Below, piece after piece: positions 128 through 60,599 of a DNA stretch of 60,599 bases. Position numbers and translations under genes: made by a program. The notes beneath the pieces were generated by a model. It had not been told where the DNA came from, ran no database searches, and saw only the letters and a program-made list of their open reading frames with translations. Source of the DNA: a virus; the IMG/VR virus record IMGVR_UViG_3300035138_000104, positions 1 to 60,599 of that record. One strand, 5' to 3'. How positions within the stretch are numbered: the first letter of the stretch is position 1; every line of letters starts with the position of its first letter.

Positions 128-172
128 ATTCTCCTTTTGTTAAATGCCTAGCTGGCGTCCCTAATTAAAATT

Positions 173-205
173 GTGAGGGGGAAAGTCTTTAAAAAACCCC
201 CTCAC
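173..205 (-). terminator. Candidate terminator hairpin after the DnaB operon
   Basis: 9-bp stem GUGAGGGGG/CCCCCUCAC (173-181 with 197-205) and a 15-nt loop. On the minus strand it is followed by AAUUUUAAUU. A second 7-bp hairpin lies at 221-227/249-255. Confidence 0.35.
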
Positions 206-2641: not shown

Positions 2642-2660
2642 TTTTTAACTCCTTAAAAAT

Positions 2661-2742
2661 AAAAAAAGCCCCTTATTAGAGAGATGAAAGGCTCGGACAG
2701 AGACCTAACACCCCCTAATAAGAGGCTTTTCATTCTGTCCGA
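2661..2742 (-). ncRNA. 5'-flank/apical-loop complementary RNA element, copy 1 (leader of the initiator-dnaB operon)
   Basis: RNA sense: UCGGACAGA (2742-2734) is complementary to UCUGUCCGA inside the 12-nt loop 2703-2692. The outer stem is GCCUCUUAUUAG (2726-2715) with CUAAUAAGGGGC (2679-2668), 12 bp including one G-U that would be A-C on the plus strand. A U7 run follows (2667-2661). Confidence 0.6.
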
Positions 2743-2750
2743 TACCAAAC

Positions 2751-2778
2751 ATATTATAATATTTTTTCAATTTGTCAA
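2751..2778 (-). promoter_or_regulatory. Sigma70-type promoter
   Basis: TTGACA (2778-2773), 16 nt, TAATAT (2756-2751). The predicted start is about 2744-2743, 1-2 nt before element copy 1. The -35 box contains the TGA stop of the upstream gene. Confidence 0.6.
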
Positions 2779-3203
2779 CAAAAATATTTACTATAATATT
2801 CATAATCTTTTTCTAGTAATAGTTGTTGATGCTTTTTTATAAGATCATCGTTTATCCATTTTGGAAAATCATAGTTATATAGAATATATTCTGAACAATA
2901 ATCCATTTTCAATTTTTTAAATATTATACTCATATTCTTTCTATTAATATTTATTTTATACCCTCTCCGTTGCCATTCTTCAAGATGACATAATATATAT
3001 TGTAAGTAATATTCAATATAATCTTCCCATTGTTTTATATTAGGATGATTTTTAACCGATTTTTTAGGGTTTACAAGCTTATCATTAATATTTAATAGGC
3101 TAGCTATGCCATGAATGTTTTCATAAATATTAGCTTGCAGTCTATTTCTATCTAGATAAGATGCTGATTTACAAAAATCATAATCTAATATCCAATTTTG
3201 CAT
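2775..3203 (-). CDS. Pyrimidine-dimer DNA glycosylase-like protein (DenV/Pyr_excise-like)
   Basis: 142 aa. The pattern W..D....SASYLD..RL.A...E...........NHP....W......YL......EW..RGY resembles bacterial/phage endonuclease V-type glycosylases (recognised from memory). Confidence 0.5.
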   Translation of the reverse strand: MQNWILDYDFCKSASYLDRNRLQANIYENIHGIASLLNINDKLVNPKKSVKNHPNIKQWEDYIEYYLQYILCHLEEWQRRGYKININRKNMSIIFKKLKMDYCSEYILYNYDFPKWINDDLIKKHQQLLLEKDYEYYSKYFC

Positions 3204-3223
3204 TATTATCCCTTAAAATAAAT

Positions 3224-3297
3224 TAGCCCCCCTCAGATTCGAACTGAGATTCATGAGTTTCTAAAACTCACGGCTTTACCAGTTAGCCCAGAGAGCC
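3224..3297 (-). tRNA. tRNA with anticodon UAG (Leu box) but class I shape (5-nt variable loop)
   Basis: 74 nt. Acceptor GGCUCUC/GGGGGCU (three G-U pairs), D loop with GG, anticodon stem UGAGU/ACUCA, loop UUUAGAA, T arm CUCAG-UUCGAAU-CUGAG, A73, no encoded CCA. Confidence 0.8.
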
Positions 3298-3300
3298 ATT

Positions 3301-3372
3301 GGGTATAAACGGGATTTGAACCCTGACCTTTTGATTCACAGTCAAATATGCTACCATTACAACATTTATACC
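3301..3372 (-). tRNA. tRNA-His (GUG)
   Basis: 72 nt. Acceptor GGUAUAA/UUAUACC, anticodon stem UUUGA/UCAAA, loop CUGUGAA, T loop UUCAAAU. The T stem has only three clean G-C pairs. Confidence 0.6.
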
Positions 3373-3374
3373 AT

Positions 3375-3447
3375 AAGCCTTGAATAGACTTGAACTATTA
3401 TTACAGGATTCAAAGTCCTGTGTCCTAACCAATTGGACGACAAGGCT
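3375..3447 (-). tRNA. tRNA-Gln (UUG)
   Basis: 73-nt clean cloverleaf. Acceptor AGCCUUG/CAAGGCU, D stem GUCC/GGAC, anticodon stem CAGGA/UCCUG with loop CUUUGAA, T arm AAUAG-UUCAAGU-CUAUU. Confidence 0.85.
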
Positions 3448-3449
3448 AT

Positions 3450-3522
3450 TCAGCGTGGGTGGACTCGAACCACCGACATCTTGATTCCAAGTCAAGTAGG
3501 CTACCAACTGCCCTACACACTG
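3450..3522 (-). tRNA. tRNA-Pro (UGG)
   Basis: 73 nt. Acceptor CAGUGUG/CACGCUG (C1-G72), anticodon stem CUUGA/UCAAG with loop CUUGGAA, T arm GGUGG-UUCGAGU-CCACC. Confidence 0.85.
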
Positions 3523-3525
3523 TAT

Positions 3526-3598
3526 TACTCGAGGTGAGATTCGAACTCACACTTGATGGATTTTAAGTCCACTATCTCTGCCGTCGGATTACTCGAGC
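3526..3598 (-). tRNA. tRNA with anticodon UAA (Leu box) but class I shape (5-nt variable loop)
   Basis: 73 nt. Acceptor GCUCGAG/CUCGAGU, U8, GG in the D loop, anticodon stem GUGGA/UCCAU with loop CUUAAAA, variable CAAGU, T arm GUGAG-UUCGAAU-CUCAC, A73. Confidence 0.85.
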
Positions 3599-3686
3599 AT
3601 AAAAAAGGCTTTTATCAAAAAGGTATAAGTGATCGGCAGAAAACTTACACACAAATTAATAAAAGCCTTATCCTGCCGATCTTTAT
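3599..3686 (-). ncRNA. 5'-flank/apical-loop complementary RNA element, copy 2 (inside the tRNA array)
   Basis: RNA sense: GAUCGGCAG (3681-3673) is complementary to CUGCCGAUC in the 12-nt loop UUUCUGCCGAUC (3642-3631). Inner stem GUGUAAGU/ACUUAUAC (3650-3643 with 3630-3623) includes one G-U that is A-C on the plus strand. Outer stem AAGGCUUUUAU/AUAAAAGCCUU (3669-3659 with 3615-3605), then UUUUAU. Confidence 0.6.
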
Positions 3687-3759
3687 TTGCAGGTATGGGA
3701 GTCGAACCCAATATTTCTAGCTCATGAGACTAGCGTGTAAACCGTTTCACTCACCTACA
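3687..3759 (-). tRNA. tRNA with anticodon CAU (Met or Ile2 type)
   Basis: 73 nt. Acceptor UGUAGGU/ACCUGCA, anticodon stem CUAGU/GCUAG with loop CUCAUGA, T arm UUGGG-UUCGACU-CCCAU, A73. Confidence 0.8.
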
Positions 3760-3765
3760 AACGAT

Positions 3766-3795
3766 ATCATACTAAAACCGTTGGATGTTTGTCAA
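3766..3795 (-). promoter_or_regulatory. Sigma70-type promoter of the tRNA array
   Basis: TTGACA (3795-3790), 18 nt, TATGAT (3771-3766). The 7th nt downstream is 3759, which is the first nucleotide of the CAU tRNA. Confidence 0.55.
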
Positions 3796-3812
3796 CTATT
3801 TTTTTAAATTTT

Positions 3813-4010
3813 TTATGAATCATTATAAATATCTTCAGGGACCAACATTAGAATCCCATCATCACGCCTGATCTGGAAAACTTTATCTCCAATTTCAAAA
3901 CCCGACATTTCATTTATATGAACTTTCTTTCCCCTTATGCCATCCTGAGAAATGACATAAGGTTTTTTTCGTAGTAAAATACCTCTAGGTTGATTTATAT
4001 TATTATCCAT
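3813..4010 (-). CDS. Hypothetical protein (65 aa)
   Basis: ATG at 4010 lies 6 nt after AAGGAGG. The longer track ORF (to 4040) overlaps the upstream gene and lacks an SD. Confidence 0.65.
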   Translation of the reverse strand: MDNNINQPRGILLRKKPYVISQDGIRGKKVHINEMSGFEIGDKVFQIRRDDGILMLVPEDIYNDS

Positions 4011-4968
4011 TAACTTCCTCCTTAACTTCTTCACCTTCAAACATGTTTTTTATTGTATCAATAGTCTTGTTATCATCTTTAATCTCTGGATATTCACGTC
4101 TTAAAGCTGTTTCAACTTTATAGCGTAAATGTGGATAAATCTTTAAAAAATACTGCCACCCCTTTTGATGTTGTGTTTCAATATGAGCTTCATTAGTCAA
4201 ATGCAACCAATTAGATGCGTAATCTTTTTCTTCTTCAGGATTGCCACCCATGCCACGTGCCTTAATATGACACAGTTGTCCAGATCCATCACCTATAAAA
4301 TCGCCAGTAGCTTCACAAATAGGATTTAATGATTTATATTCTGCCCCTGTAAGAACATCATCATGCAATATAATTTTATTATCATTTAATGATTGTTTCC
4401 ACTTTAGCCAATAATCATGTATTTCACCTGGATTTGTAACTGTAACACCATTGACTGACATCCGGTTAAATATCATATCAACCCATTCTGCCATTTGTTT
4501 TGTATTAAACTTACTGGTAGTCAAAATACACGTAATTATTTTTTCGCCTTCTTTATAATCCTTGACATCTATTACTCTATATTCCGACTTAAACATATTA
4601 AGAAGCTCACTTTTAATTCTCATTTCAAATCTAGGTGCTTCACTTTCTAGATCATTTTCGTAAAGTTCCTGGCTGGTAAACATATGCTCCTTACTCCCTT
4701 TCATACCAGCATTTAGCTCATTTGATTCTATCTCGTATAATGCCCACATAAGATTATTTTGATCAAGTGTTCGTTTTTTATAATGTATTTCTATTGAAAC
4801 ATCGATATCTTTTAATTCTTCTTTTTTATTCTGTATCTGGTCTAATTTATTTAATACAATAGCCATCTTTTTATAGTAGCTTTCTTTTGGTTTTAATAGT
4901 AAATATCCTTTTGGTATATTGGATTGCCAGTCCTTCGACCAATTTGCAACAAACTTAATTAATGCCAT
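4003..4968 (-). CDS. NinB-like recombination protein fused to an HNH nuclease domain
   Basis: KRTLDQNNLMWALYEIESNEL resembles the lambda NinB RSLDQNRKLWACLGDV segment. The C terminus CHIKARGMGG...NWLHLTNEAHIETQH is HNH-like. ATG at 4968 follows GGAGG. Confidence 0.6.
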   Translation of the reverse strand: MALIKFVANWSKDWQSNIPKGYLLLKPKESYYKKMAIVLNKLDQIQNKKEELKDIDVSIEIHYKKRTLDQNNLMWALYEIESNELNAGMKGSKEHMFTSQELYENDLESEAPRFEMRIKSELLNMFKSEYRVIDVKDYKEGEKIITCILTTSKFNTKQMAEWVDMIFNRMSVNGVTVTNPGEIHDYWLKWKQSLNDNKIILHDDVLTGAEYKSLNPICEATGDFIGDGSGQLCHIKARGMGGNPEEEKDYASNWLHLTNEAHIETQHQKGWQYFLKIYPHLRYKVETALRREYPEIKDDNKTIDTIKNMFEGEEVKEEVNG

Positions 4969-8211: not shown

Positions 8212-8268
8212 AATGACCTCCTTAAAATAATTATTAAAGAAGCCCACTTAATGAGCTTCGTAAAATAA

Positions 8269-8508
8269 TTATTCAATTTTAAATAACCTATCACGTGTTG
8301 TAATAACACATTTGCCTTCTTCAAGATTAGGAGCAAAACCCATAATATAAACCATGCCAGAATTATTTTTAGGATTTCCATTTCTTAAATATCCATCTTG
8401 TTTATATTCATCTTTAATAGGGTTCTCTTTTTCGATGTACTGTATAAGCTCATCTTTTTCAAACTCTTTTCCATTAACAATCCATTTTTCTTTTAATTCA
8501 ACAGCCAT
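8269..8508 (-). CDS. Hypothetical protein (79 aa)
   Basis: Minus-strand ORF in the early gene train with GGAGG upstream. Confidence 0.65.
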   Translation of the reverse strand: MAVELKEKWIVNGKEFEKDELIQYIEKENPIKDEYKQDGYLRNGNPKNNSGMVYIMGFAPNLEEGKCVITTRDRLFKIE

Positions 8509-25797: not shown

Positions 25798-26861
25798 TCT
25801 TTTACCTCCTTGCCTGATCCGTATTTTTGTTTACCTTTGTTAATTCTGTCAACTTTTGAATTTACTATTAACTTTACATTTGCACAGGATTCTTTAATAG
25901 AATTATTCAAAGCTTTAAAATTATCATTAGGTTTTTTTGAATTTTCTTTCTGTGCCTTTTCATCAACAGTCTCTTCCATTGTTGTATCTGTTGGAAGCTC
26001 AGCATTAGCCTTTGATGCTCGCCTTTGATAAGACGCAATCAATTCACTTGCTAGAACTTTTTCACCATCGCCAATATCAATTTCATCTTCAGGATTAATC
26101 ACATTATTGCCTTCTTCGCCTGTTTCATCTTTAACTTTTTCCTCTTTATAAGCAGTAATGACTTCAGAAAGAGGAACTTGCTCGCCTTCTATTTCAAGAA
26201 TAGCATCATCCATATTTACTTTTTCTTCCTCAACGATTTCATCTTCAGGTTTTTTCTCAGTTTCAGCGTCTATATTGTTTTTAAAAAGGTGAAAGATCTT
26301 TTTCTTTTTTTTCATCGAATCCTCCTTTGAATTCTGATAAATACTCAATACCTTTTCTGACATAGAATTATGGAAGCTGGAATCTAATTCATAGATTTTT
26401 GCAAACTCATATCTAGGTTTTTCAACAATTGCCATATGTGTATATACGCCATCAATAACTTCTTCATCGTAGGGTATTCCATGCCATACATCGCCCCTAT
26501 CAGTCTTTGTTGGCATGTATGCACATGAAGCAGAATAACCTTGTTTGATATTCTTTTTTGTGTCTAAATCCCAAATAATAACGTCTGCATAACCCCTTCC
26601 ATTATCTAGCCATCCATAGTTATAAACAACGCCGTCTGCTAAGGCTTGCTTCTCTGCATCGGACAATTTAAAAGCTTCTTCAGGCTCTAAATCTTTGTGC
26701 AACCTGTTAATAACAGGTTTACCAATGAAAGAAGACATCATTCGATCTAATGCGTCCCTTGACACAAACACCGTACCTTGATCAACGTCCTCATAACTAA
26801 TTATTCCAGGCTCGATAAATTCAATTCTGTACCTCTGAGGGTATTTTTCTAAATCTGGCAT
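25794..26861 (-). CDS. Prohead scaffold/protease-like protein
   Basis: 355 aa, first gene of the late operon. It has a globular N-terminal half and a highly acidic/Lys-rich C-terminal half (EDEIVEEEKV..., EEKVKDETGEEG). It resembles the DUF2213-type phage family (from memory). Confidence 0.5.
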   Translation of the reverse strand: MPDLEKYPQRYRIEFIEPGIISYEDVDQGTVFVSRDALDRMMSSFIGKPVINRLHKDLEPEEAFKLSDAEKQALADGVVYNYGWLDNGRGYADVIIWDLDTKKNIKQGYSASCAYMPTKTDRGDVWHGIPYDEEVIDGVYTHMAIVEKPRYEFAKIYELDSSFHNSMSEKVLSIYQNSKEDSMKKKKKIFHLFKNNIDAETEKKPEDEIVEEEKVNMDDAILEIEGEQVPLSEVITAYKEEKVKDETGEEGNNVINPEDEIDIGDGEKVLASELIASYQRRASKANAELPTDTTMEETVDEKAQKENSKKPNDNFKALNNSIKESCANVKLIVNSKVDRINKGKQKYGSGKEVKE

Positions 26862-26928
26862 TTTCGCCTCTTTTAATTTAATCTAATTTCAATATATAAT
26901 ATATTTTACGCTTAATGAAACAAAACTG

Positions 26929-26957
26929 TTGACATTGCAACTTCGTAATATTATAAT
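26929..26957 (+). promoter_or_regulatory. Perfect-consensus sigma70 promoter of the plus-strand operon
   Basis: TTGACA (26929-26934), exactly 17 nt, TATAAT (26952-26957). GAAGGAAG SD, then ATG at 26990. Confidence 0.8.
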
Positions 26958-26989
26958 GTTCTTATATTAAAATATTGAAGGAAGTAAAC

Positions 26990-27145
26990 ATGGCATTTGA
27001 TTATATTAATTTATTGATTAAAGATGAAATCTTATATGTTAAAATACTTGAGAAATATTTTGAAGAAAAAAAACATAATAGGAAAATAACTAAAATTGAT
27101 ATTGTCGAAAGATTATTAAGAAAAGGATTGGAAAATGAAAAATAA
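26990..27145 (+). CDS. Small protein (51 aa)
   Basis: First ORF after the consensus promoter and SD. Its stop overlaps the next start. Confidence 0.55.
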   Translation: MAFDYINLLIKDEILYVKILEKYFEEKKHNRKITKIDIVERLLRKGLENEK

Positions 27146-27389
27146 ATCAATACCACCTAAACCAATCCCAACTCCAATTAGAAAAGTTAATGAAGGATTT
27201 AATTTCAATTGGATTAGAGCATTTATTAAAAAAATAACCACTCCAAAATCTAAAAGAAAATTAGTATCTGTCAAAGAAGTAAAAGAGATTTATAAAGGAT
27301 TTTCCAAAAATCAGCTTATAAGAGTAATAATCCGACTATCTCAAGAAAATGCCATGTTAAGATATAAAAAAGGAATGATAAGAAAATGA
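27135..27389 (+). CDS. Basic small protein (84 aa)
   Basis: Translationally coupled ORF. The N terminus is Lys/Pro-rich. Confidence 0.6.
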   Translation: MKNKSIPPKPIPTPIRKVNEGFNFNWIRAFIKKITTPKSKRKLVSVKEVKEIYKGFSKNQLIRVIIRLSQENAMLRYKKGMIRK

Positions 27390-27559
27390 TCAAATATTTT
27401 TTAAAAAGGCAAAACGATGCCGAATTTAAAGAAGTTGCCAGATCTGAATATCTTCATCATCAAAAACAAGCTGGATATTATGTTGGTAACATGATATTAC
27501 GCAGCTTCCATGATAGAGACCAAAATATATCAGGCCAGGCAAAGGAAATTAAAAAATGA
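27386..27559 (+). CDS. Small protein (57 aa)
   Basis: ATGA overlap with the upstream stop. It is below the track cutoff. Confidence 0.5.
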   Translation: MIKYFLKRQNDAEFKEVARSEYLHHQKQAGYYVGNMILRSFHDRDQNISGQAKEIKK

Positions 27560-27645
27560 AAGATAACACCGCCTTTGCAATTTTTATTATAGTTATGTTT
27601 ATCATAGCTGTTTTATTATTATTTTTAGCAAAAATATTATTTTAA
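27556..27645 (+). CDS. Hydrophobic mini-protein (29 aa)
   Basis: ATGA overlap. MKDNTAFAIFIIVMFIIAVLLLFLAKILF is a single TM helix. Confidence 0.4.
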   Translation: MKDNTAFAIFIIVMFIIAVLLLFLAKILF

Positions 27646-27657
27646 GGAGAAATAAAA

Positions 27658-27957
27658 ATGAAAGCAATCAAAATTGATAAATACCAAAAAGTAGGTGACT
27701 TGGAATATTCAATAAAACTCAATGTAAAGTTAACATTTTGGCTAGCCGTGAAATTACGTATCGCCGGTATTTATAATCTTTTAGACGCAGAAGAACATAA
27801 ACCAATCCATAAACAAACAAATATATATCATAATGCCAATAGAATTGATACTTCTAATTTAAAATCTGGACAAGCAATTAGTAATGATTCAGAATTAAAA
27901 TTGGCTAAAAAATTAGAAAAAGACTTATTAAATAAAAGAGGAAGAAGATTCAAATAA
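27658..27957 (+). CDS. Hypothetical protein (99 aa)
   Basis: AAGGAG lies 8 nt upstream. Its 3' end overlaps the 3' end of the convergent gene 27950..28639 by 8 bp. Confidence 0.6.
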   Translation: MKAIKIDKYQKVGDLEYSIKLNVKLTFWLAVKLRIAGIYNLLDAEEHKPIHKQTNIYHNANRIDTSNLKSGQAISNDSELKLAKKLEKDLLNKRGRRFK

Positions 27958-39957: not shown

Positions 39958-40036
39958 AAAATAAAAAAGACTTTCTGAAGGATGGGAACTGCGAGCTACC
40001 CATTTAACCCTGTCAAAAAGTCTTTTTCTCGCAGTT
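39958..40036 (-). ncRNA. 5'-flank/apical-loop complementary RNA element, copy 3 (leader of the glycan island operon)
   Basis: RNA sense: AACUGCGAG (40036-40028) is complementary to CUCGCAGUU in the 12-nt loop UAGCUCGCAGUU (39998-39987). Inner stem AUGGG/CCCAU. Outer stem AAAAAGACUUU/AAAGUCUUUUU (40027-40017 with 39974-39964), then UAUUUU. Confidence 0.6.
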
Positions 40037-40043
40037 AATATAG

Positions 40044-40071
40044 ATTATACTGCAATATTTTTATTTGTCAA
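40044..40071 (-). promoter_or_regulatory. Sigma70-type promoter
   Basis: TTGACA (40071-40066), 16 nt, TATAAT (40049-40044). The predicted start is about 40039-40036, at the first nucleotides of element copy 3. Confidence 0.7.
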
Positions 40072-46514: not shown

Positions 46515-46730
46515 TTATCTAAAATATAAAACGTTTTTCTGATTTCTCCGATTATTTTTGTTAATGCATATAGAACAATAAATATGACTTGCTGCTATTT
46601 TACGAAATGATTTCTTTTCTTTTCCACATGCTTCACATATTAATGGATATGTTATGACTTTTTCTTCAATCTTTTTTCTTTTCTTTCTTATTCTTTTAGT
46701 CTTTTTTGGTGCTTTTTTCTTTTTTGCCAT
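46515..46730 (-). CDS. Highly basic zinc-ribbon protein (71 aa), apparently leaderless
   Basis: MAKKKKAPKKTKRIRKKRKK then CEAC...CSIC. There is no SD, and the ATG lies 5 nt after the -10 box. Confidence 0.6.
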   Translation of the reverse strand: MAKKKKAPKKTKRIRKKRKKIEEKVITYPLICEACGKEKKSFRKIAASHIYCSICINKNNRRNQKNVLYFR

Positions 46731-46735
46731 AATTC

Positions 46736-46765
46736 ACTATACAATAATTAAGGATTATTTGTCAA
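46736..46765 (-). promoter_or_regulatory. Sigma70-type promoter giving a leaderless mRNA
   Basis: TTGACA (46765-46760), 18 nt, TATAGT (46741-46736), then GAAUU and ATG (46730). Confidence 0.6.
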
Positions 46766-48317: not shown

Positions 48318-48950
48318 TTATATTTTCTTATTTATTTTACTTTGTATTTCGTGATAAGCCTTTTCAGCCTCTTCTTCTGTTAAGCTCTCAAAGTTTACAG
48401 CGCCGATTCTCTTGCCTTTTGACGTAAAATCTATATTCTGTGTTAATAACTTCATATACATAGAAAGCTTTTCAAGAGCATTCTCTCTATTAGCAAGCTT
48501 TACTTTCGTTATCTTTTTGCCTAACCGATTATATGTCGTCTCTATCCCATCAATACATTTAGTTAACTTACCAAGATCATCAAGCTTTCCTGTCTTCTCA
48601 AGCTTTAAATTACCTTCTTTATCAAGAATATCTTCAGTATTATAAAAAGCCCTAAGCTTATACATTTGTATAATTTCATATTCTAAGGTGTCTTTATAGT
48701 CTGATATTATCTCGTCAAGATAATCTTTAATAGCAGCCTTTACGTTAGAGTTTGCAAGCAATTTACTCGCATCAGTTCTGGCGGTATCATAATTTTGTGT
48801 TAAATTTAACTTTAAATATGCTTGTGTACCATTAAAACCATTGTTTACATATTCTGCTATAAATATTCTTTGATTATCTGTAATTTTGGTATTGGTTAAT
48901 AAACTAGATAAATCCTCAGTTGTAGGAATAGCCACCTTGTTGTCACTCAT
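48318..48950 (-). CDS. terS: Terminase small subunit
   Basis: 210 aa. ITDNQRIFIAEYVNNGFNGTQAYLK...ASKLLANSNVKAAIKD matches the Terminase_2-type N-terminal pattern. Confidence 0.8.
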   Translation of the reverse strand: MSDNKVAIPTTEDLSSLLTNTKITDNQRIFIAEYVNNGFNGTQAYLKLNLTQNYDTARTDASKLLANSNVKAAIKDYLDEIISDYKDTLEYEIIQMYKLRAFYNTEDILDKEGNLKLEKTGKLDDLGKLTKCIDGIETTYNRLGKKITKVKLANRENALEKLSMYMKLLTQNIDFTSKGKRIGAVNFESLTEEEAEKAYHEIQSKINKKI

Positions 48951-48956
48951 AATTAA

Positions 48957-48985
48957 ATATTAGCCCTTTTGTTATGGTTTGTCAA
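48957..48985 (-). promoter_or_regulatory. Sigma70-type promoter giving a leaderless terS mRNA
   Basis: TTGACA (48985-48980), 17 nt, TAATAT (48962-48957), then UUAAUU and ATG (48950). There is no SD. Confidence 0.65.
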
Positions 48986-50492: not shown

Positions 50493-50512
50493 TCTTTCAC
50501 CTCATATATAAT

Positions 50513-50715
50513 AATAGTTGCTATGGTAAGATTCGATTCTTACAATAAGCACCTAGACAGCGAAACGTTTCAAATATGCTTCTAGGCCTGCGTTCAAGCA
50601 CTTCCTAATGGCTTATTTTTCCCGTCTATAAGTTTGTGTTATGGGCATCCAGTTGCCTACTGGCATAACAACTTATTTCTTAAGGGCGTCTCTATTCCGC
50701 CACATAGCAACTATT
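50513..50715 (-). ncRNA. Candidate ~200-nt multi-helix structured RNA in the ASCH gene leader
   Basis: 13-bp closing helix (50513-50525 with 50703-50715) around four arms. These are hairpin 50526-50543; helix 50544-50550/50611-50617 with inner 50552-50557/50581-50586; stacked helices 50628-50634/50670-50676, 50638-50643/50664-50669 and 50649-50653/50659-50663; and hairpin 50685-50688/50698-50701. The region is visibly more G+C-rich than its surroundings. The strand is inferred from context only. Confidence 0.5.
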
Positions 50716-50718
50716 TAT

Positions 50719-51117
50719 TTAATATTTTAATTCAATTTTTATTCTTTGTCCATATGCCGACCAACCAATTTTAGAATCCTTTGTAACAATTCGATTAAAC
50801 TGTTGACTATTCTTAATTTTAAAGCTTTCTTTGTCGAAATCGTCCACTTGAAAATTAAACACAAATGGGCAACAGCATAATTTCTTTTCATCTAAGTTAT
50901 ATACAATTAAATAAATCTCTTGATCTTCCAATATATATTGAGATAGATCAATAATTTGTTCTTCTGTAGGTACTTCGCCTTCATATATCAATACTGTTGT
51001 TAATTTTTTCTCTTGAATAATTGTTTTATCGTCTTTGCCATCGTCACCGTCCTCACTTTGCTGTAAAGGGCAACTTATTAACATAATACTTAGTAAAATT
51101 AAAATAAAATACTTCAT
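50719..51117 (-). CDS. Lipoprotein (132 aa)
   Basis: Signal peptide ending in the lipobox LISC. Confidence 0.65.
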   Translation of the reverse strand: MKYFILILLSIMLISCPLQQSEDGDDGKDDKTIIQEKKLTTVLIYEGEVPTEEQIIDLSQYILEDQEIYLIVYNLDEKKLCCCPFVFNFQVDDFDKESFKIKNSQQFNRIVTKDSKIGWSAYGQRIKIELKY

Positions 51118-53276: not shown

Positions 53277-53305
53277 ATTATACGTTAATTTTGTTTTTAT
53301 TACAA
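53277..53305 (-). promoter_or_regulatory. Sigma70-type promoter giving a (near-)leaderless mRNA
   Basis: TTGTAA (53305-53300), 17 nt, TATAAT (53282-53277), then AAACAACA and ATG (53268). Confidence 0.55.
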
Positions 53306-53321
53306 GTTTTTTCTTTGGTTT

Positions 53322-53528
53322 TTAATAGCCGTTGCCGTTGCCGTCGCCGTCGCTGTAACCGTAGCCGTTGCCGTCGCCGTAGCCGTCGCCGTAGCCGTCG
53401 CCGTAGCCGTAGCCGTTGCCGTTGCCGTAGCCGTTGCCGTAGCCGTCGCCGTAGCCGTCGCCGTAGCCGTAGCCGTCGCCGTTGCCTAAATTGCTTTGTC
53501 CTTCTTCATTTATAAAACTTTTTTCCAT
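53322..53528 (-). CDS. (Gly-[Asp/Asn/Tyr])27 repeat peptide (68 aa)
   Basis: ATG at 53528 follows GAGGAAGAGG. A 14-aa N-terminal segment MEKSFINEEGQSNL is followed by 27 dipeptide units G-D, G-N or G-Y (one S-D). Confidence 0.6.
   Translation of the reverse strand: MEKSFINEEGQSNLGNGDGYGYGDGYGDGYGNGYGNGNGYGYGDGYGDGYGDGNGYGYSDGDGNGNGY
53325..53486. repeat. 27 tandem hexamers GT[ACT]GCC (G+C-rich island)
   Basis: Direct reading of 53325-53486 gives 27 consecutive 6-nt units. Only three deviate from GT[ACT]GCC (ATAGCC, GTCGCT, GTAACC). Confidence 0.9.
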
Positions 53529-53887: not shown

Positions 53888-53960
53888 TAGGCACGGTAGG
53901 ATTCGAACCTACGATGTAACTTAATGCAAACTAGTATGACTCAAGCCTTTGTCCATGCCT
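53888..53960 (-). tRNA. Degenerate tRNA-like element (UGC at the anticodon position)
   Basis: 73 nt. Good acceptor stem AGGCAUG/CGUGCCU and T arm GUAGG-UUCGAAU-CCUAC. The D stem is displaced and has 3 bp (GAC/GUC), and the anticodon stem is weak (ACUAG/UAAGU with an A-A mismatch). Confidence 0.4.
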
Positions 53961-54070
53961 ATAACAAAAGGGATAAGGAGAAAATTTATTACAAGAAATT
54001 ATCATGAAAAAAAGTCTTATAAAAGATGTTGATAAGAAAGATTGCATTCAAAACTCCTTATCCCTAAAAA

Positions 54071-57112: not shown

Positions 57113-57192
57113 GAAAGGCTTTAATAAAAGAGCCGGCCGATCGAAGTAAGCCGGTTTAAACTCTTTTACTAAAGCCTTCCTTATCTTCGATC
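57113..57192 (-). ncRNA. 5'-flank/apical-loop complementary RNA element, copy 4
   Basis: RNA sense: GAUCGAAG (57192-57185) is complementary to CUUCGAUC in the 12-nt loop UUACUUCGAUCG (57149-57138). Inner stem CCGGC/GCCGG. The 20-bp outer stem (57180-57161 with 57132-57113) contains two G-U pairs that would be A-C on the plus strand. No U tract follows. Confidence 0.6.
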
Positions 57193-57200
57193 TATTAATA

Positions 57201-57228
57201 AGTATAGCTCAATTTTTAAATTTTTCAA
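57201..57228 (-). promoter_or_regulatory. Sigma70-type promoter
   Basis: TTGAAA (57228-57223, containing the TGA stop of the upstream ORF), 16 nt, TATACT (57206-57201). The predicted start is about 57194-57193, 1-2 nt before element copy 4. Confidence 0.55.
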
Positions 57229-60166: not shown

Positions 60167-60597
60167 ACTATATCCTTTTTATATAAAATAATAGTTTCAT
60201 TAAATTTTTTTCTATTATATAATGAAATAAAAGGACACTTAAAATTATATTTCTTATATACTTTTATCGCCGTATTAGTTAATTGTTTAACTGTATTAAA
60301 TCGAATAGTTTTACATTTATTTTCTTTCCATAAATTTAAATGGATTCCTGCTGTTTGATCTTTTTCATCTAAAATTTCAGCTTCTTTTTTAGATAAAATT
60401 CTTTTTAACTCAATCTTGTTTTTTACATAAAATCCCCAAGCTCTATTATCTATATTATCTATATTTATAGATTTATCAAAGATTAAATTAAATGAACCAT
60501 AATAATGAATAGCATCAAGAGAATTATTTACCCATGAAGTTATATTAAGCACACACAATTCAACATTCTCTATATTGTCTATATTTATGTTATTCAT
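60163..60597 (-). CDS. Hypothetical protein (144 aa) spanning the assembly junction
   Basis: The start at 60597 corresponds to position 125 of the duplicated end. AAAGGAG (139-133) precedes that ATG in the circular molecule. Confidence 0.65.
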   Translation of the reverse strand: MNNINIDNIENVELCVLNITSWVNNSLDAIHYYGSFNLIFDKSINIDNIDNRAWGFYVKNKIELKRILSKKEAEILDEKDQTAGIHLNLWKENKCKTIRFNTVKQLTNTAIKVYKKYNFKCPFISLYNRKKFNETIILYKKDIV

Positions 60598-60599
60598 GC
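60473..60599. repeat. Terminal direct repeat copy 2 (identical to 1..127)
   Basis: See the feature at 1..127. Confidence 0.95.

What the first reader, a model, noticed from the sequence alone, without database searches (positions are those of the whole stretch)
3599..3686. Family copy 2 sits inside the tRNA array, between the CAU tRNA and the other five tRNAs
Five nt after the discriminator base of the CAU tRNA comes GAUCGGCAG (3681-3673). It is perfectly complementary to CUGCCGAUC in the 12-nt loop UUUCUGCCGAUC (3642-3631). The loop is closed by the 8-bp stem GUGUAAGU/ACUUAUAC, which has one G-U that would be A-C on the plus strand. This is nested in the outer stem AAGGCUUUUAU/AUAAAAGCCUU. 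The outer stem ends in a U run only 2 nt before the first base of the UAA tRNA. Here the free 5' end would be made by tRNA 3' processing rather than by transcription initiation. That suggests the proximity of the flank to an RNA 5' end is the conserved property. If the outer stem terminates transcription, it would gate expression of five of the six tRNAs.
Basis: seen in the sequence. Interest (0 to 1): 0.7.

Follow-up and report, generated by a model that had tools for sequence, protein, structure and literature searches.

The report
Terminator switch RNA inside tRNA array
The 86-base spacer in this phage's tRNA operon is one of four copies of an undescribed RNA element, a terminator hairpin whose tip base-pairs with the start of the RNA, and it probably sets how much transcription passes into the genes behind it.

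Summary
Every helix and coordinate named for 3599-3686 (minus strand) is present. tRNA predictors and Rfam do not explain the spacer.

It belongs to a real family. The window holds four copies (about 2744, 3685, 40036 and 57193), all on the coding strand. Three start at the predicted +1 of sigma-70-like promoters and end just before a ribosome-binding site. I found 14 more candidate examples in 11 related uncultured phage contigs, mostly upstream of replication genes.

Each has a long terminator-like hairpin plus U-run. The hairpin's apical loop is complementary to a segment upstream. This pairing covaries completely: 97% of cells pair against 42% in shuffles, and the combined shuffle p is 2.6e-14. 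No unpaired nucleotide is conserved.

In nascent-transcript folds the 5'-end/loop helix forms first and encloses the terminator's 5' arm. With a 0-6 nt linker it cannot coexist with the full terminator.

Best reading (inferred, untested): a leader attenuator with a non-overlapping, pseudoknot-type antiterminator. In the tRNA array it would throttle five tRNAs and a repair gene. That gate is probably leaky, because this copy has the smallest energy gap (4 kcal/mol). The signal, if there is one, is unknown.

Novelty: new variant of a known kind.

The parts
3766..3795 (-). Sigma-70-like promoter of the tRNA operon (TTGACA-18-TATGAT). The predicted +1 coincides with the first base of tRNA-Met.
   Evidence: 11 of 12 matches; sequence.
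3686..3760 (-). tRNA-Met (anticodon CAT), directly upstream of the element. No encoded CCA.
   Evidence: 45.6 bits.
3673..3681 (-). Segment A (GAUCGGCAG): the 5' flank that pairs with the apical loop.
   Evidence: (p = 0.004).
3656..3669 (-). B, the 5' arm of the outer (terminator) stem: AAGGCUUUUAUUAA.
   Evidence: 14 bp.
3643..3650 (-). C, the 5' arm of the inner stem: GUGUAAGU.
3631..3642 (-). Apical loop UUUCUGCCGAUC. It has 3 unpaired nt, then A' (CUGCCGAUC, 3639-3631), which abuts the 3' arm of the inner stem with 0 nt between.
3623..3630 (-). C', the 3' arm of the inner stem: ACUUAUAC. One G-U pair makes the helix strand-specific.
3599..3618 (-). B', the 3' arm of the outer stem (UUGAUAAAAGCCUU, 3618-3605), followed by the U-run UUUUAU (3604-3599).
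3223..3599 (-). The five downstream tRNAs: Leu-TAA, Pro-TGG, Gln-TTG, His-GTG and Leu-TAG, 2 nt apart. They lie behind the terminator-like hairpin. The ORF 2775-3203 (pyrimidine-dimer glycosylase family) follows with no terminator between.
2655..2778 (-). Family copy c2744. Promoter TTGACA-16-TAATAT; A 2742-2734; outer stem 2730-2711 / 2683-2664; A' 2701-2693; U-run; then the ribosome-binding site of the replication-organiser-like gene and DnaB.
39958..40071 (-). Family copy c40040. Promoter TTGACA-16-TATAAT; A 40036-40028; outer stem 40027-40013 / 39978-39964; A' 39995-39987; U-run; ribosome-binding site.
57115..57228 (-). Family copy c57193. Promoter TTGAAA-16-TATACT; A 57192-57185; outer stem 57178-57161 / 57132-57115; A' 57146-57139. 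Its U-run is weak (UUUCAUUGU).

Best explanation
The spacer is a cis-acting transcription attenuator of a previously undescribed design. It is one member of a lineage-specific family of phage leader RNAs.

The outer stem plus U-run is an intrinsic terminator. The first-transcribed segment (A) is complementary to the terminator's own apical loop (A').

On the nascent RNA, A:A' forms before the 3' arm of the terminator is made. It closes a loop that holds the terminator's 5' arm. From the conserved loop geometry, it probably stacks on the inner stem as a pseudoknot with the RNA's 5' end at the helical junction.

Only 0-6 nt join A to the base of a 14-25 bp stem, so this fold and the complete terminator cannot coexist in one molecule. 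The 5'-end/loop helix therefore acts as an antiterminator that shares no nucleotides with the terminator stem. The balance between the two folds sets read-through.

In the tRNA array the element sits between tRNA-Met and five tRNAs plus a DNA-repair gene, and would set their expression relative to tRNA-Met. RNase Z and RNase P cuts would also release it as an RNA of about 86 nt.

Shown: the sequence anatomy, covariation, strand specificity, promoter-proximal position and the order of predicted folds.

Inferred: that termination occurs, that A:A' suppresses it, and the three-dimensional arrangement.

Unknown: what modulates the switch, if anything. No conserved unpaired nucleotides exist that could bind a ligand or a sequence-specific protein.
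For: 1. Anatomy. The 14-bp stem ends in GCCUU and is followed by UUUUAU. 9 of the first 10 family members carry a run of 6-7 U right after the stem.

2. Family. There are four copies in the window, all on the coding strand in intergenic leaders. Three are directly behind sigma-70-like promoters and directly before ribosome-binding sites. Further examples occur in L215, L216 (three), L217, L218, L299 (two), L300 and L301, with candidates in L303, L304, L306 and L324. Most lie upstream of replication genes.

3. A:A' covaries.
- There are 18 different sequences. 97.2% of cells pair against 41.7% in shuffles, and against 32-53% when the partner is slid. All 8 pairs show all four Watson-Crick types.
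- Per-element shuffle p values run from 0.0004 to 0.044, and the Fisher combined p is 2.6e-14 for the first ten.

4. Strand specificity. The sense fold is 6-18 kcal/mol more stable than the antisense fold in 10 of 10 elements. The sense fold has 2-9 G-U pairs and the antisense fold 0-1.

5. Order of folds. Before the 3' arm is transcribed, the minimum-energy fold contains A:A' in 8 of 10 elements. At full length the terminator fold wins by 4.2 kcal/mol in c3685 and by up to 14.6 kcal/mol in the others.

6. Geometry. The linker from A to the outer stem is 0-6 nt. A' abuts the inner stem's 3' arm (0-1 nt) and has 1-4 nt on its 5' side in 7 of 8 elements. A starts 6-8 nt after the -10 hexamer.

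7. Lineage-specific. In 2.6 Mb of unrelated viral contigs, only 3 of 139 long U-run hairpins have such a complement, against 4 decoys.

8. Conservation in the 97-99% relative.
- c3685 has 0 changes in 86 nt, against 6 in about 150 nt upstream. c57193 is unchanged.
- c40040 has a single change, and it falls in the unpaired loop. The sequence diverges completely right after the U-run.

9. Precedent. RNA structures placed a few nt upstream of an intrinsic terminator suppress termination without sequence overlap, depending on a short spacer (bioRxiv 10.64898/2026.06.17.733018).
Against: - There is no experimental evidence. Neither termination nor read-through has been measured, and the host is unknown.
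- The hairpins are atypical terminators. Their stems are 14-25 bp and their apices 16-44 nt. Surveyed terminators have stems of about 7-9 bp and loops of 3-5 nt (PMC10325885). The simple terminator scan did not list them.
- c57193 lacks a good U-run.
- In the kissing-type relatives (L216, L299a) the linker is 10-28 nt. There the loop contact and the terminator could coexist, so steric exclusion is not universal.
- No sensor or regulator was identified. A built-in antiterminator with no input seems purposeless unless it only tunes read-through or tells transcripts apart.
- The A and A' segments counted were chosen by their complementarity.
- The examples L303-L324 came from a loose descriptor that is not enriched overall: 8 hits against 3 decoys on the sense strand, and 7 against 12 on the antisense strand.
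Confidence: 0.45

Rival explanations
1. Stability and processing module rather than a transcription switch. The element exists to give RNAs base-paired ends. Pairing of the first nucleotides shields the 5' end from 5'-end-dependent RNases, and the stem plus U-tail shields the 3' end. This would yield a stable leader RNA of about 85 nt (cut out by RNase Z and RNase P in the tRNA array) or a stabilised mRNA 5' end. The U-run hairpin would simply be its 3' end.
For: - A begins at the predicted +1, so it has 0-2 unpaired 5' nt.
- In L216 and L299a the transcript starts with a hairpin.
- In the array the flank lies 4 nt after the tRNA 3' end and the U-run lies 2 nt before the next tRNA, so tRNA processing would release a discrete RNA.
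- T4 also carries small RNAs of unknown function, RNAC and RNAD (PMC9697503). That they lie beside its tRNA genes is from my own knowledge.
- That 5'-terminal helices stabilise bacterial RNAs is established knowledge, also from my own memory.
Against: - In the full-length minimum-energy fold the 5' segment is single-stranded.
- With a 0-6 nt linker it cannot reach the loop of its own completed hairpin. 5' protection therefore exists only in the non-terminator fold.
- This reading does not explain why the partner of the 5' end must be the terminator apex.
- No conserved sequence suggests a trans-acting function.
Confidence: 0.2
2. Trans-acting antisense RNA of the P1/P7 c4 kind. The processed spacer RNA would use its exposed loop (UCUGCCGAUC) as a seed against other transcripts. 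The upstream complement would be a competing or decoy site.
For: - The loop has a 7-nt complement (CGGCAGA) in the D region of the adjacent tRNA-Leu(TAA), and a 6-nt core (CGGCAG) in the c57193 leader.
- c4 RNA is released by RNase P and has loops complementary to sites on its own transcript. This is from my own knowledge; RNase P reviews listed mention c4.
Against: - Other genome matches to A or A' are scattered 7-8-mers inside coding regions, as expected by chance.
- Each copy has its own private A/A' code. That fits cis pairing.
- Rfam gives no c4 match at E <= 10.
Confidence: 0.07
3. Self-assembly. Terminated RNAs have a free 5' tail and a free complementary loop. They would pair between molecules, head to tail, with the intermolecular helix stacking between one unit's inner stem and the next unit's outer stem. 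This would build RNA multimers.
For: - Pairing in cis is sterically excluded once the terminator has folded, but pairing in trans is not (geometry: linker 0-6 nt, 0-1 nt between A' and the inner stem).
- Natural RNA homo-oligomers have recently been described (abstract of PMC12990946).
Against: - There is no direct evidence.
- Covariation cannot separate cis from trans pairing.
- The cis helix is predicted to form first on the nascent chain.
- The kissing-type relatives do not need trans pairing.
Confidence: 0.03
4. Ordinary spacer or terminator hairpin with an incidental complement, or a DNA-level inverted repeat such as a protein-binding site, a recombination site or an origin.
For: - Inverted repeats are common in AT-rich phage DNA.
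- The loose descriptors give background hits.
- A:A' uses only Watson-Crick pairs, so it could also form in DNA.
Against: - The complement recurs with different sequences in all 18 elements examined, 4 of them candidates from a loose descriptor.
- Stems B and C contain 2-9 G-U pairs on the sense strand only.
- Every copy is on the coding strand between a promoter and a ribosome-binding site.
- The architecture is absent from 2.6 Mb of unrelated contigs.
Confidence: 0.03

Closest known systems
Terminator/antiterminator attenuators (expression platforms of riboswitches, T-box, trp- and pyr-type leaders)
   Same: - It is a 5' leader.
- It has an intrinsic terminator.
- An earlier-transcribed alternative helix precludes the terminator, and the outcome is decided during transcription.
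   Different: - The antiterminator's 3' strand lies in the terminator's apical loop, not in its 5' arm. Exclusion is steric or topological, not competition for the same bases.
- It has no aptamer, no consistent leader peptide and no conserved protein site.
- Its 5' strand is the very first nucleotides of the transcript.
'Tug-of-war' antitermination (Bushhouse, Fu and Lucks, bioRxiv 10.64898/2026.06.17.733018)
   Same: - A folded RNA structure a few nt upstream of a terminator suppresses termination.
- There is no sequence overlap, and the effect depends on a short spacer.
- Natural cases occur mainly in Gram-positive bacteria.
   Different: - In that system the upstream structure is an independent, ligand-stabilised aptamer. 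Here the upstream helix is built with the terminator's own loop, so it is a pseudoknot.
- No ligand pocket is evident.
Cis-acting antiterminator RNAs of mobile elements (HK022 put, pLS20 conAn2, Tn916 canT)
   Same: - They are promoter-proximal RNAs of a phage or mobile element.
- They let that element's own transcripts pass terminators.
- In Tn916 a terminator insulates replication genes from outside read-through (PMC11658703, PMC8191782, PMC9378689).
   Different: - Those RNAs act on RNA polymerase and work processively on distant terminators.
- They are larger or have conserved features.
- They do not themselves contain the terminator.
Long-stem intrinsic terminators such as TerR of pLS20 (PMC10325885)
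   Same: The stems are unusually long: 15 bp in TerR and 14-25 bp here, against an average of 7-9 bp.
   Different: - TerR is a simple hairpin at an operon end, and its length gives resistance to antitermination.
- Here the hairpins are at operon starts and carry a nested apex that pairs upstream.
T4 RNAC/RNAD and the P1/P7 c4 RNA (phage small RNAs linked to tRNA-type processing)
   Same: - They are non-tRNA structured RNAs co-transcribed with tRNA genes or processed like them.
- c4 has loops complementary to sites on its own transcript.
- RNAC and RNAD have unknown functions (PMC9697503).
   Different: - No sequence or Rfam relation was found.
- c4 targets a downstream ribosome-binding site in trans-like fashion.
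- The element here also occurs in ordinary mRNA leaders.

Membership tests
Intrinsic (Rho-independent) terminator | A G+C-containing stem immediately followed by a U-rich tract. | tested here: met
   The 14-bp stem ends in GCCUU and UUUUAU follows. 9 of the first 10 family members have a run of 6-7 U.
Intrinsic (Rho-independent) terminator | Compact hairpin, typically with a stem of about 7-9 bp and a loop of 3-5 nt. | tested here: not met
   The apical region is 37 nt and holds a nested 8-bp hairpin. The consensus scan with loops of 3-8 nt did not list it. Typical sizes are from PMC10325885.
Intrinsic (Rho-independent) terminator | RNA 3' ends are produced at the U-tract by RNA polymerase alone. 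| not testable with these tools
   Needs in vitro transcription or 3'-end mapping.
Terminator/antiterminator attenuator | An earlier-transcribed helix that is mutually exclusive with the terminator. | tested here: met
   The nascent minimum-energy fold contains A:A' in 8 of 10 elements. A fold with A:A' enforced excludes the terminator. A linker of 0-6 nt makes coexistence sterically implausible (inference).
Terminator/antiterminator attenuator | The antiterminator shares nucleotides with the terminator stem. | tested here: not met
   A' lies wholly in the apical loop, 3639-3631.
Riboswitch or ribozyme | Conserved unpaired core nucleotides, or a match to a curated model. | tested here: not met
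   There is no Rfam match at gathering scores or at E <= 10 beyond generic hairpin hits. No sequence is conserved among the family members.
Tug-of-war antitermination | A stable structure within a few nt upstream of the terminator's 5' arm, with no sequence overlap. | tested here: met
   The linker is 0-6 nt in the 8 window-type elements.
Tug-of-war antitermination | The upstream structure is an autonomous ligand-binding aptamer. | tested here: not met
   The upstream helix is made with the terminator loop, and no conserved pocket exists.
tRNA or tRNA-like RNA | A cloverleaf detected by ARAGORN or by Rfam RF00005. | tested here: not met
   Searches find nothing in 3600-3685.
Processive antiterminator RNAs (put, EAR, conAn2, canT) | Modifies RNA polymerase so that it reads through distant terminators. 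| not testable with these tools
   Only context is shared (promoter-proximal, in a mobile element). There is no Rfam EAR match.
P1/P7 c4 antisense RNA | Match to the Rfam c4 model, and targets on its own transcript that overlap a ribosome-binding site. | tested here: not met
   No c4 hit at E <= 10. No complement to A' at downstream ribosome-binding sites.

The most novel reading that the evidence does not exclude
The element is a terminator that tells transcripts apart by where they started. The antiterminating pseudoknot needs the RNA's 5' terminus to sit at the junction between the A:A' helix and the inner stem.

- Transcripts born at the cognate promoter have A at +1. In the tRNA operon, A follows an autonomously folding, removable tRNA. 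These transcripts unlock the terminator and read through.
- Transcripts arriving from upstream carry a 5' extension. In some copies this extension also pairs with A. They fail to form the pseudoknot and are stopped.

This would be a protein-free insulator placed downstream of its own promoter. It would protect replication genes, and here a tRNA set, from outside read-through.
Probability: 0.2. Interest if true: 0.8.

Novelty: new variant of a known kind. Interest (0 to 1): 0.62.

Why it matters
If confirmed, this would be a natural, recurrent example of an antiterminator that shares no nucleotides with its terminator. It would work through a pseudoknot built from the transcript's first nucleotides and the terminator's own loop. 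That mechanism has only just been proposed from synthetic constructs and a subset of ZTP riboswitches.

It would also explain how an uncultured group of low-G+C phages organises its transcription units: a promoter, then a self-unlocking terminator, then the ribosome-binding site, often in front of replication genes.

It would show that a phage can meter part of a tRNA array independently of the first tRNA.

The private, fully covarying 'address' of each copy makes the hypothesis directly testable with compensatory mutants. The design is compact enough to be useful as a synthetic insulator.

Tried and rejected
1. Sequence-pattern scans for homologues.
- GATCG-N-GATAAGG-N-CGATC gave 120 or more chance hits in viral contigs.
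- AAGGCTTT-N-CGATC-N-AAAGCCTT found only the 97% relative, plus an unrelated 72-nt repeat family.
- The family has no conserved sequence, so relatives had to be reached through neighbouring proteins.

2. Other collection searches.
- The metagenome-contig scan with DnaB, and the scan with a conserved hairpin pattern, found nothing.
- GenBank phages hold no close relative. Only tRNA matches appeared, and terminase identity is at most 34%.

3. Rfam, at gathering scores and at permissive thresholds, explains neither copy.

4. Leader peptides. c2744 and c40040 contain short ORFs that end at the UAA before the ribosome-binding site, but c3685 and c57193 have none. I rejected this as a common mechanism (from the sequences).

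5. A trans-acting partner or master regulator complementary to several A or A' segments was not found.

6. Antisense promoters reading into the elements were not found.

7. An 'anti-antiterminator', meaning RNA upstream of +1 that is complementary to A. It is significant only in c2744, c40040 and L217 (p = 0.001-0.03) and absent in 7 of 10. I kept it only as partial support for the novel reading.

8. A phage antiterminator, repressor or integrase. None was recognised among the roughly 40 proteins screened. The screen was not exhaustive.

9. General phage feature. No enrichment in 2.6 Mb of unrelated contigs, and no overall enrichment of the loose descriptor in 79 more distant replication-protein loci.

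10. I did not build a covariance model. The members differ too much in length and layout for a gapless automatic alignment.

Full report
**Context.** The window is a circularly assembled contig of 60,472 bp; bases 1-127 repeat at 60473-60599. It has 29.5% G+C. It is a phage genome:
- terminase, portal-region and head genes, SSB, a RuvC-like protein, a NinB-like protein, DnaB and a DNA methyltransferase are present;
- nearly all ORFs lie on the minus strand.

No cultured phage is close. Terminase identity is at most 34%, and DNA matches are to tRNAs only. One IMG/VR contig (IMGVR_UViG_3300037297_000231) is a 97-99% mosaic relative.

**The observation.** ARAGORN and Rfam find six tRNAs on the minus strand. 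tRNA-Met(CAT) lies at 3686-3760. After an 86-nt gap come Leu(TAA), Pro, Gln, His and Leu(TAG) at 3223-3599, spaced by 2 nt.

- GAUCGGCAG at 3681-3673;
- its perfect complement in the 12-nt loop at 3642-3631;
- the 8-bp inner stem with one G-U;
- the outer stem, which extends to 14 bp;
- UUUUAU, which runs up to the next tRNA.

The region folds far better than shuffles (-30.6 kcal/mol, z = -5.4). Neither tRNA predictors nor Rfam, even at E <= 10, account for it.

A sigma-70-like promoter (TTGACA-18-TATGAT, 3795-3766) places the predicted start at the first base of tRNA-Met. No terminator separates the last tRNA from the next ORF, which belongs to the pyrimidine-dimer glycosylase family.

**The family in the window.** Structure-based scans and inspection of all intergenic regions found three more copies on the same strand.

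| Copy | A | A' |
|---|---|---|
| c2744 | UCGGACAGA | UCUGUCCGA |
| c40040 | AACUGCGAG | CUCGCAGUU |
| c57193 | GAUCGAAG | CUUCGAUC |

Each has the same order of parts:
- segment A;
- a linker of 0-6 nt;
- the 5' arm of a long outer stem (14-20 bp);
- an inner stem;
- a loop with 2-3 unpaired nt, then A', then 0-1 nt;
- the two 3' arms;
- a U-run, which is weak in c57193.

Each sits just behind a strong promoter-like site, and A starts 7-8 nt after the -10 hexamer, which is at the predicted +1. c2744 and c40040 end directly before a ribosome-binding site. In c57193 about 30 nt intervene.

With a stem of at least 8 bp and an A of at least 8 nt, the window yields these four copies with hairpin energies of -25 to -39 kcal/mol. 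All are on the coding strand. Markov shuffles give only weak hits.

**The family elsewhere.** Exact-pattern scans failed because the copies share no sequence. Relatives were reached through DnaB and the replication-organiser-like protein that follows c2744.

Their leaders carry the same architecture with unrelated sequences:

| Locus | A / A' | Note |
|---|---|---|
| L217 | CAGGUGUGC / GCACACCUG | |
| L300 | AAAGCGUUAC / GUAACGCUUU | A starts 6 nt after the -10 |
| L299b | ACAGGUUAC / GUAACCUGU | |
| L301 | CUACAAUGAA / UUCAUUGUAG | |
| L215 | CAACAUAA / UUAUGUUG | |
| L218 | CUGGUAAA / UUUACCAG | |

There is also a 'kissing' variant in L216 (three copies) and L299a. In it, A lies in the loop of a 5'-terminal hairpin. 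A' lies at the top of the terminator, next to a small tetraloop hairpin.

Four further candidates lie upstream of replication-protein genes in IMG/VR contigs: L303, L304, L306 and L324. The loose descriptor that found them is not enriched over decoys overall.

In 2.6 Mb of unrelated viral contigs the architecture is not enriched: 3 of 139 long U-run hairpins, against 4 decoys. The element is therefore specific to this lineage. It is not a generic property of AT-rich phage DNA.

**Evidence for an RNA structure.**
- For the first ten elements, the chance of the observed complement between the 45 nt upstream and the apical region is 0.0004-0.044 each. The combined p is 2.6e-14.
- Across 18 elements the eight central A:A' pairs are 97.2% paired, against 41.7% after shuffling and 32-53% when slid. 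Every pair shows all four Watson-Crick types. One caveat applies: these segments were chosen by complementarity, so one search is the fairer test.
- Sense-strand folds are 6-18 kcal/mol more stable than antisense folds in all ten. They have 2-9 G-U pairs, against 0-1. This argues for RNA on the coding strand and against a DNA-level repeat.
- No unpaired nucleotide is conserved. That argues against an aptamer, a ribozyme or a sequence-specific protein site.
- In the 97-99% relative, c3685 is unchanged over 86 nt while the roughly 150 nt upstream carry six changes, about p = 0.03. c57193 is unchanged.
- c40040 has one change in that relative, in an unpaired loop base. Homology ends right after the U-run. 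The promoter-plus-element unit therefore behaves as a module boundary.

**How it most likely works.** Before the 3' arm of the outer stem exists, the minimum-energy fold of the nascent RNA contains A:A' in 8 of 10 elements. That helix encloses the terminator's 5' arm. At full length the terminator fold is favoured by 4.2 kcal/mol in c3685 and by up to 14.6 kcal/mol in the others.

In nested-structure terms the two folds are exclusive. In three dimensions I also infer exclusion, from standard pseudoknot stereochemistry (my own knowledge):
- A' abuts the inner stem's 3' arm, and only 1-4 nt lie on its other side.
- This is the geometry expected if A:A' stacks on the inner stem, with the short segment crossing the deep groove and the RNA's 5' terminus at the junction.
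- From that position a 0-6 nt linker cannot reach the base of a 14-25 bp outer stem.

The 5'-end/loop helix would therefore oppose completion of the terminator without sharing bases with it.

This matches a recently reported principle. [quoted passage not shown]

I therefore read the family as leader attenuators with a built-in, non-overlapping antiterminator. c3685 would throttle five tRNAs and the downstream repair gene relative to tRNA-Met. Its gate is probably the leakiest, because it has the smallest energy gap.

Termination itself, the effect of A:A', and any modulating signal remain untested.

**What the tRNA context adds.** In the other window copies A is the first thing transcribed. 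Here tRNA-Met occupies +1 and A follows 4 nt after it. A tRNA folds on its own and is cut away, so A is again free of upstream competitors.

This leads to the most novel reading that is not excluded. Only transcripts that begin at the cognate promoter could form the pseudoknot and pass. Read-through from upstream would be stopped.

There is partial support. RNA just upstream of +1 can pair with A in c2744, c40040 and L217 (p = 0.001-0.03), but not in seven others.

There is also a conceptual precedent in Tn916. There a terminator insulates replication genes and a cis RNA lets the element's own transcripts through (PMC11658703).

**Rivals.**
- A stability and processing role (paired 5' and 3' ends, a discrete excised RNA of about 86 nt) fits the end positions. 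It does not explain why the partner of the 5' end is the terminator apex.
- A c4-like trans-acting RNA has only 6-7-nt chance-level targets.
- Intermolecular head-to-tail pairing of terminated RNAs is geometrically possible but has no support.
- A chance or DNA-level repeat is contradicted by the covariation, the G-U asymmetry and the consistent placement.

**Comparison with known systems and verdict.** The element works like a terminator/antiterminator attenuator and like 'tug-of-war' antitermination, but it fails a defining feature of each:
- it has no shared nucleotides with the terminator stem;
- it has no autonomous aptamer.

It is not a member of any Rfam family. Its stems are far longer than typical terminators. 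The nearest case is the 15-bp TerR stem, which confers resistance to antitermination (PMC10325885).

I classify it as a new variant of a known kind. The structural facts are solid, the mechanism is inferred, and the interest is moderate to high.

Noticed in passing
window 50500-50725 (-); also L299:3085-3175, L299:~8265-8345, L215:599-725: A second conserved leader RNA family lies behind promoters. A closing stem, UAGUUGCUAUG...CAUAGCAACUA, starts about 2-4 nt after the predicted +1 and ends just before a ribosome-binding site. It encloses a class-II-tRNA-like D arm (GUGGCGGAAUAGAGACGCC), a T-arm-like hairpin (GUAAGAAUCGAAUCUUAC) and an insert of variable size (80-190 nt overall). Rfam gives no match even at E <= 1, and ARAGORN does not call it.
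   Followed up: partly
window 53888-53960 (-) and 53964-54065 (-): A degenerate tRNA-like sequence. The acceptor and T arms match Rfam tRNA at 23.9 bits, below the cutoff of 29, and the D and anticodon arms do not fit. ARAGORN does not call it. It is preceded by a perfect 12-nt long-range inverted repeat, AGGGAUAAGGAG...CUCCUUAUCCCU. This repeat would pair the Shine-Dalgarno region of a possible 38-codon ORF with its own coding sequence.
   Followed up: partly
window 48950-48985 (-) and 46730-46765 (-): Two strong promoter-like sites, TTGACA-17-TAATAT and TTGACA-18-TATAGT, have an ATG only 5-6 nt after the -10 hexamer. This suggests leaderless mRNAs for the 210-aa ORF just upstream of the large terminase and for a 71-aa ORF.
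   Followed up: no
window 165-205 (-); L217:~4175-4215: A hairpin, GUGAGGGGG-UUUUUUAAAGACUUU-CCCCCUCAC, lies downstream of the DnaB operon. It is conserved in a 55%-identity relative, with a compensatory change in the stem (GAGAGGG/CCCUCUC) and a nearly identical 14-15-nt loop. No U-run follows. Its function is unknown.
   Followed up: no
L121:6192-6583 compared with window 3199-3816: The 97% relative keeps the promoter, the tRNA-Met region, the spacer element, tRNA-Leu(TAA) and tRNA-Leu(TAG). It lacks Pro, Gln and His. Its tRNA-Met copy has an acceptor-stem mismatch and a change at position 37, and ARAGORN no longer calls it. It also carries an insertion of about 600 bp just upstream of the promoter.
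   Followed up: partly
window 3571-3577 and 3634-3640 (-): The spacer's loop (UCUGCCG) is complementary to CGGCAGA in the D region of the adjacent tRNA-Leu(TAA). The c57193 leader contains GACGGCAG downstream of its hairpin. This may be chance.
   Followed up: partly
window 53302-53510: A 12-bp-period tandem array (GCCGTn repeats, about 12 or more copies) lies inside a small ORF region.
   Followed up: no
L299:3975-4170: A roughly 200-nt array of hexamer repeats, (GGTCT[A/G/T])n, lies in an intergenic region of a related phage contig.
   Followed up: no
window 26861-27950: This is the only stretch of about 1.1 kb without minus-strand ORFs. It holds two small plus-strand ORFs (84 and 99 aa) with no Pfam match. 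It may be a divergent regulatory region.
   Followed up: no
window 39958-39963 / L382:~4140: Homology with the close relative breaks exactly after the U-run of copy c40040. The promoter-plus-element cassette is therefore shared, while the downstream cargo genes differ.
   Followed up: partly
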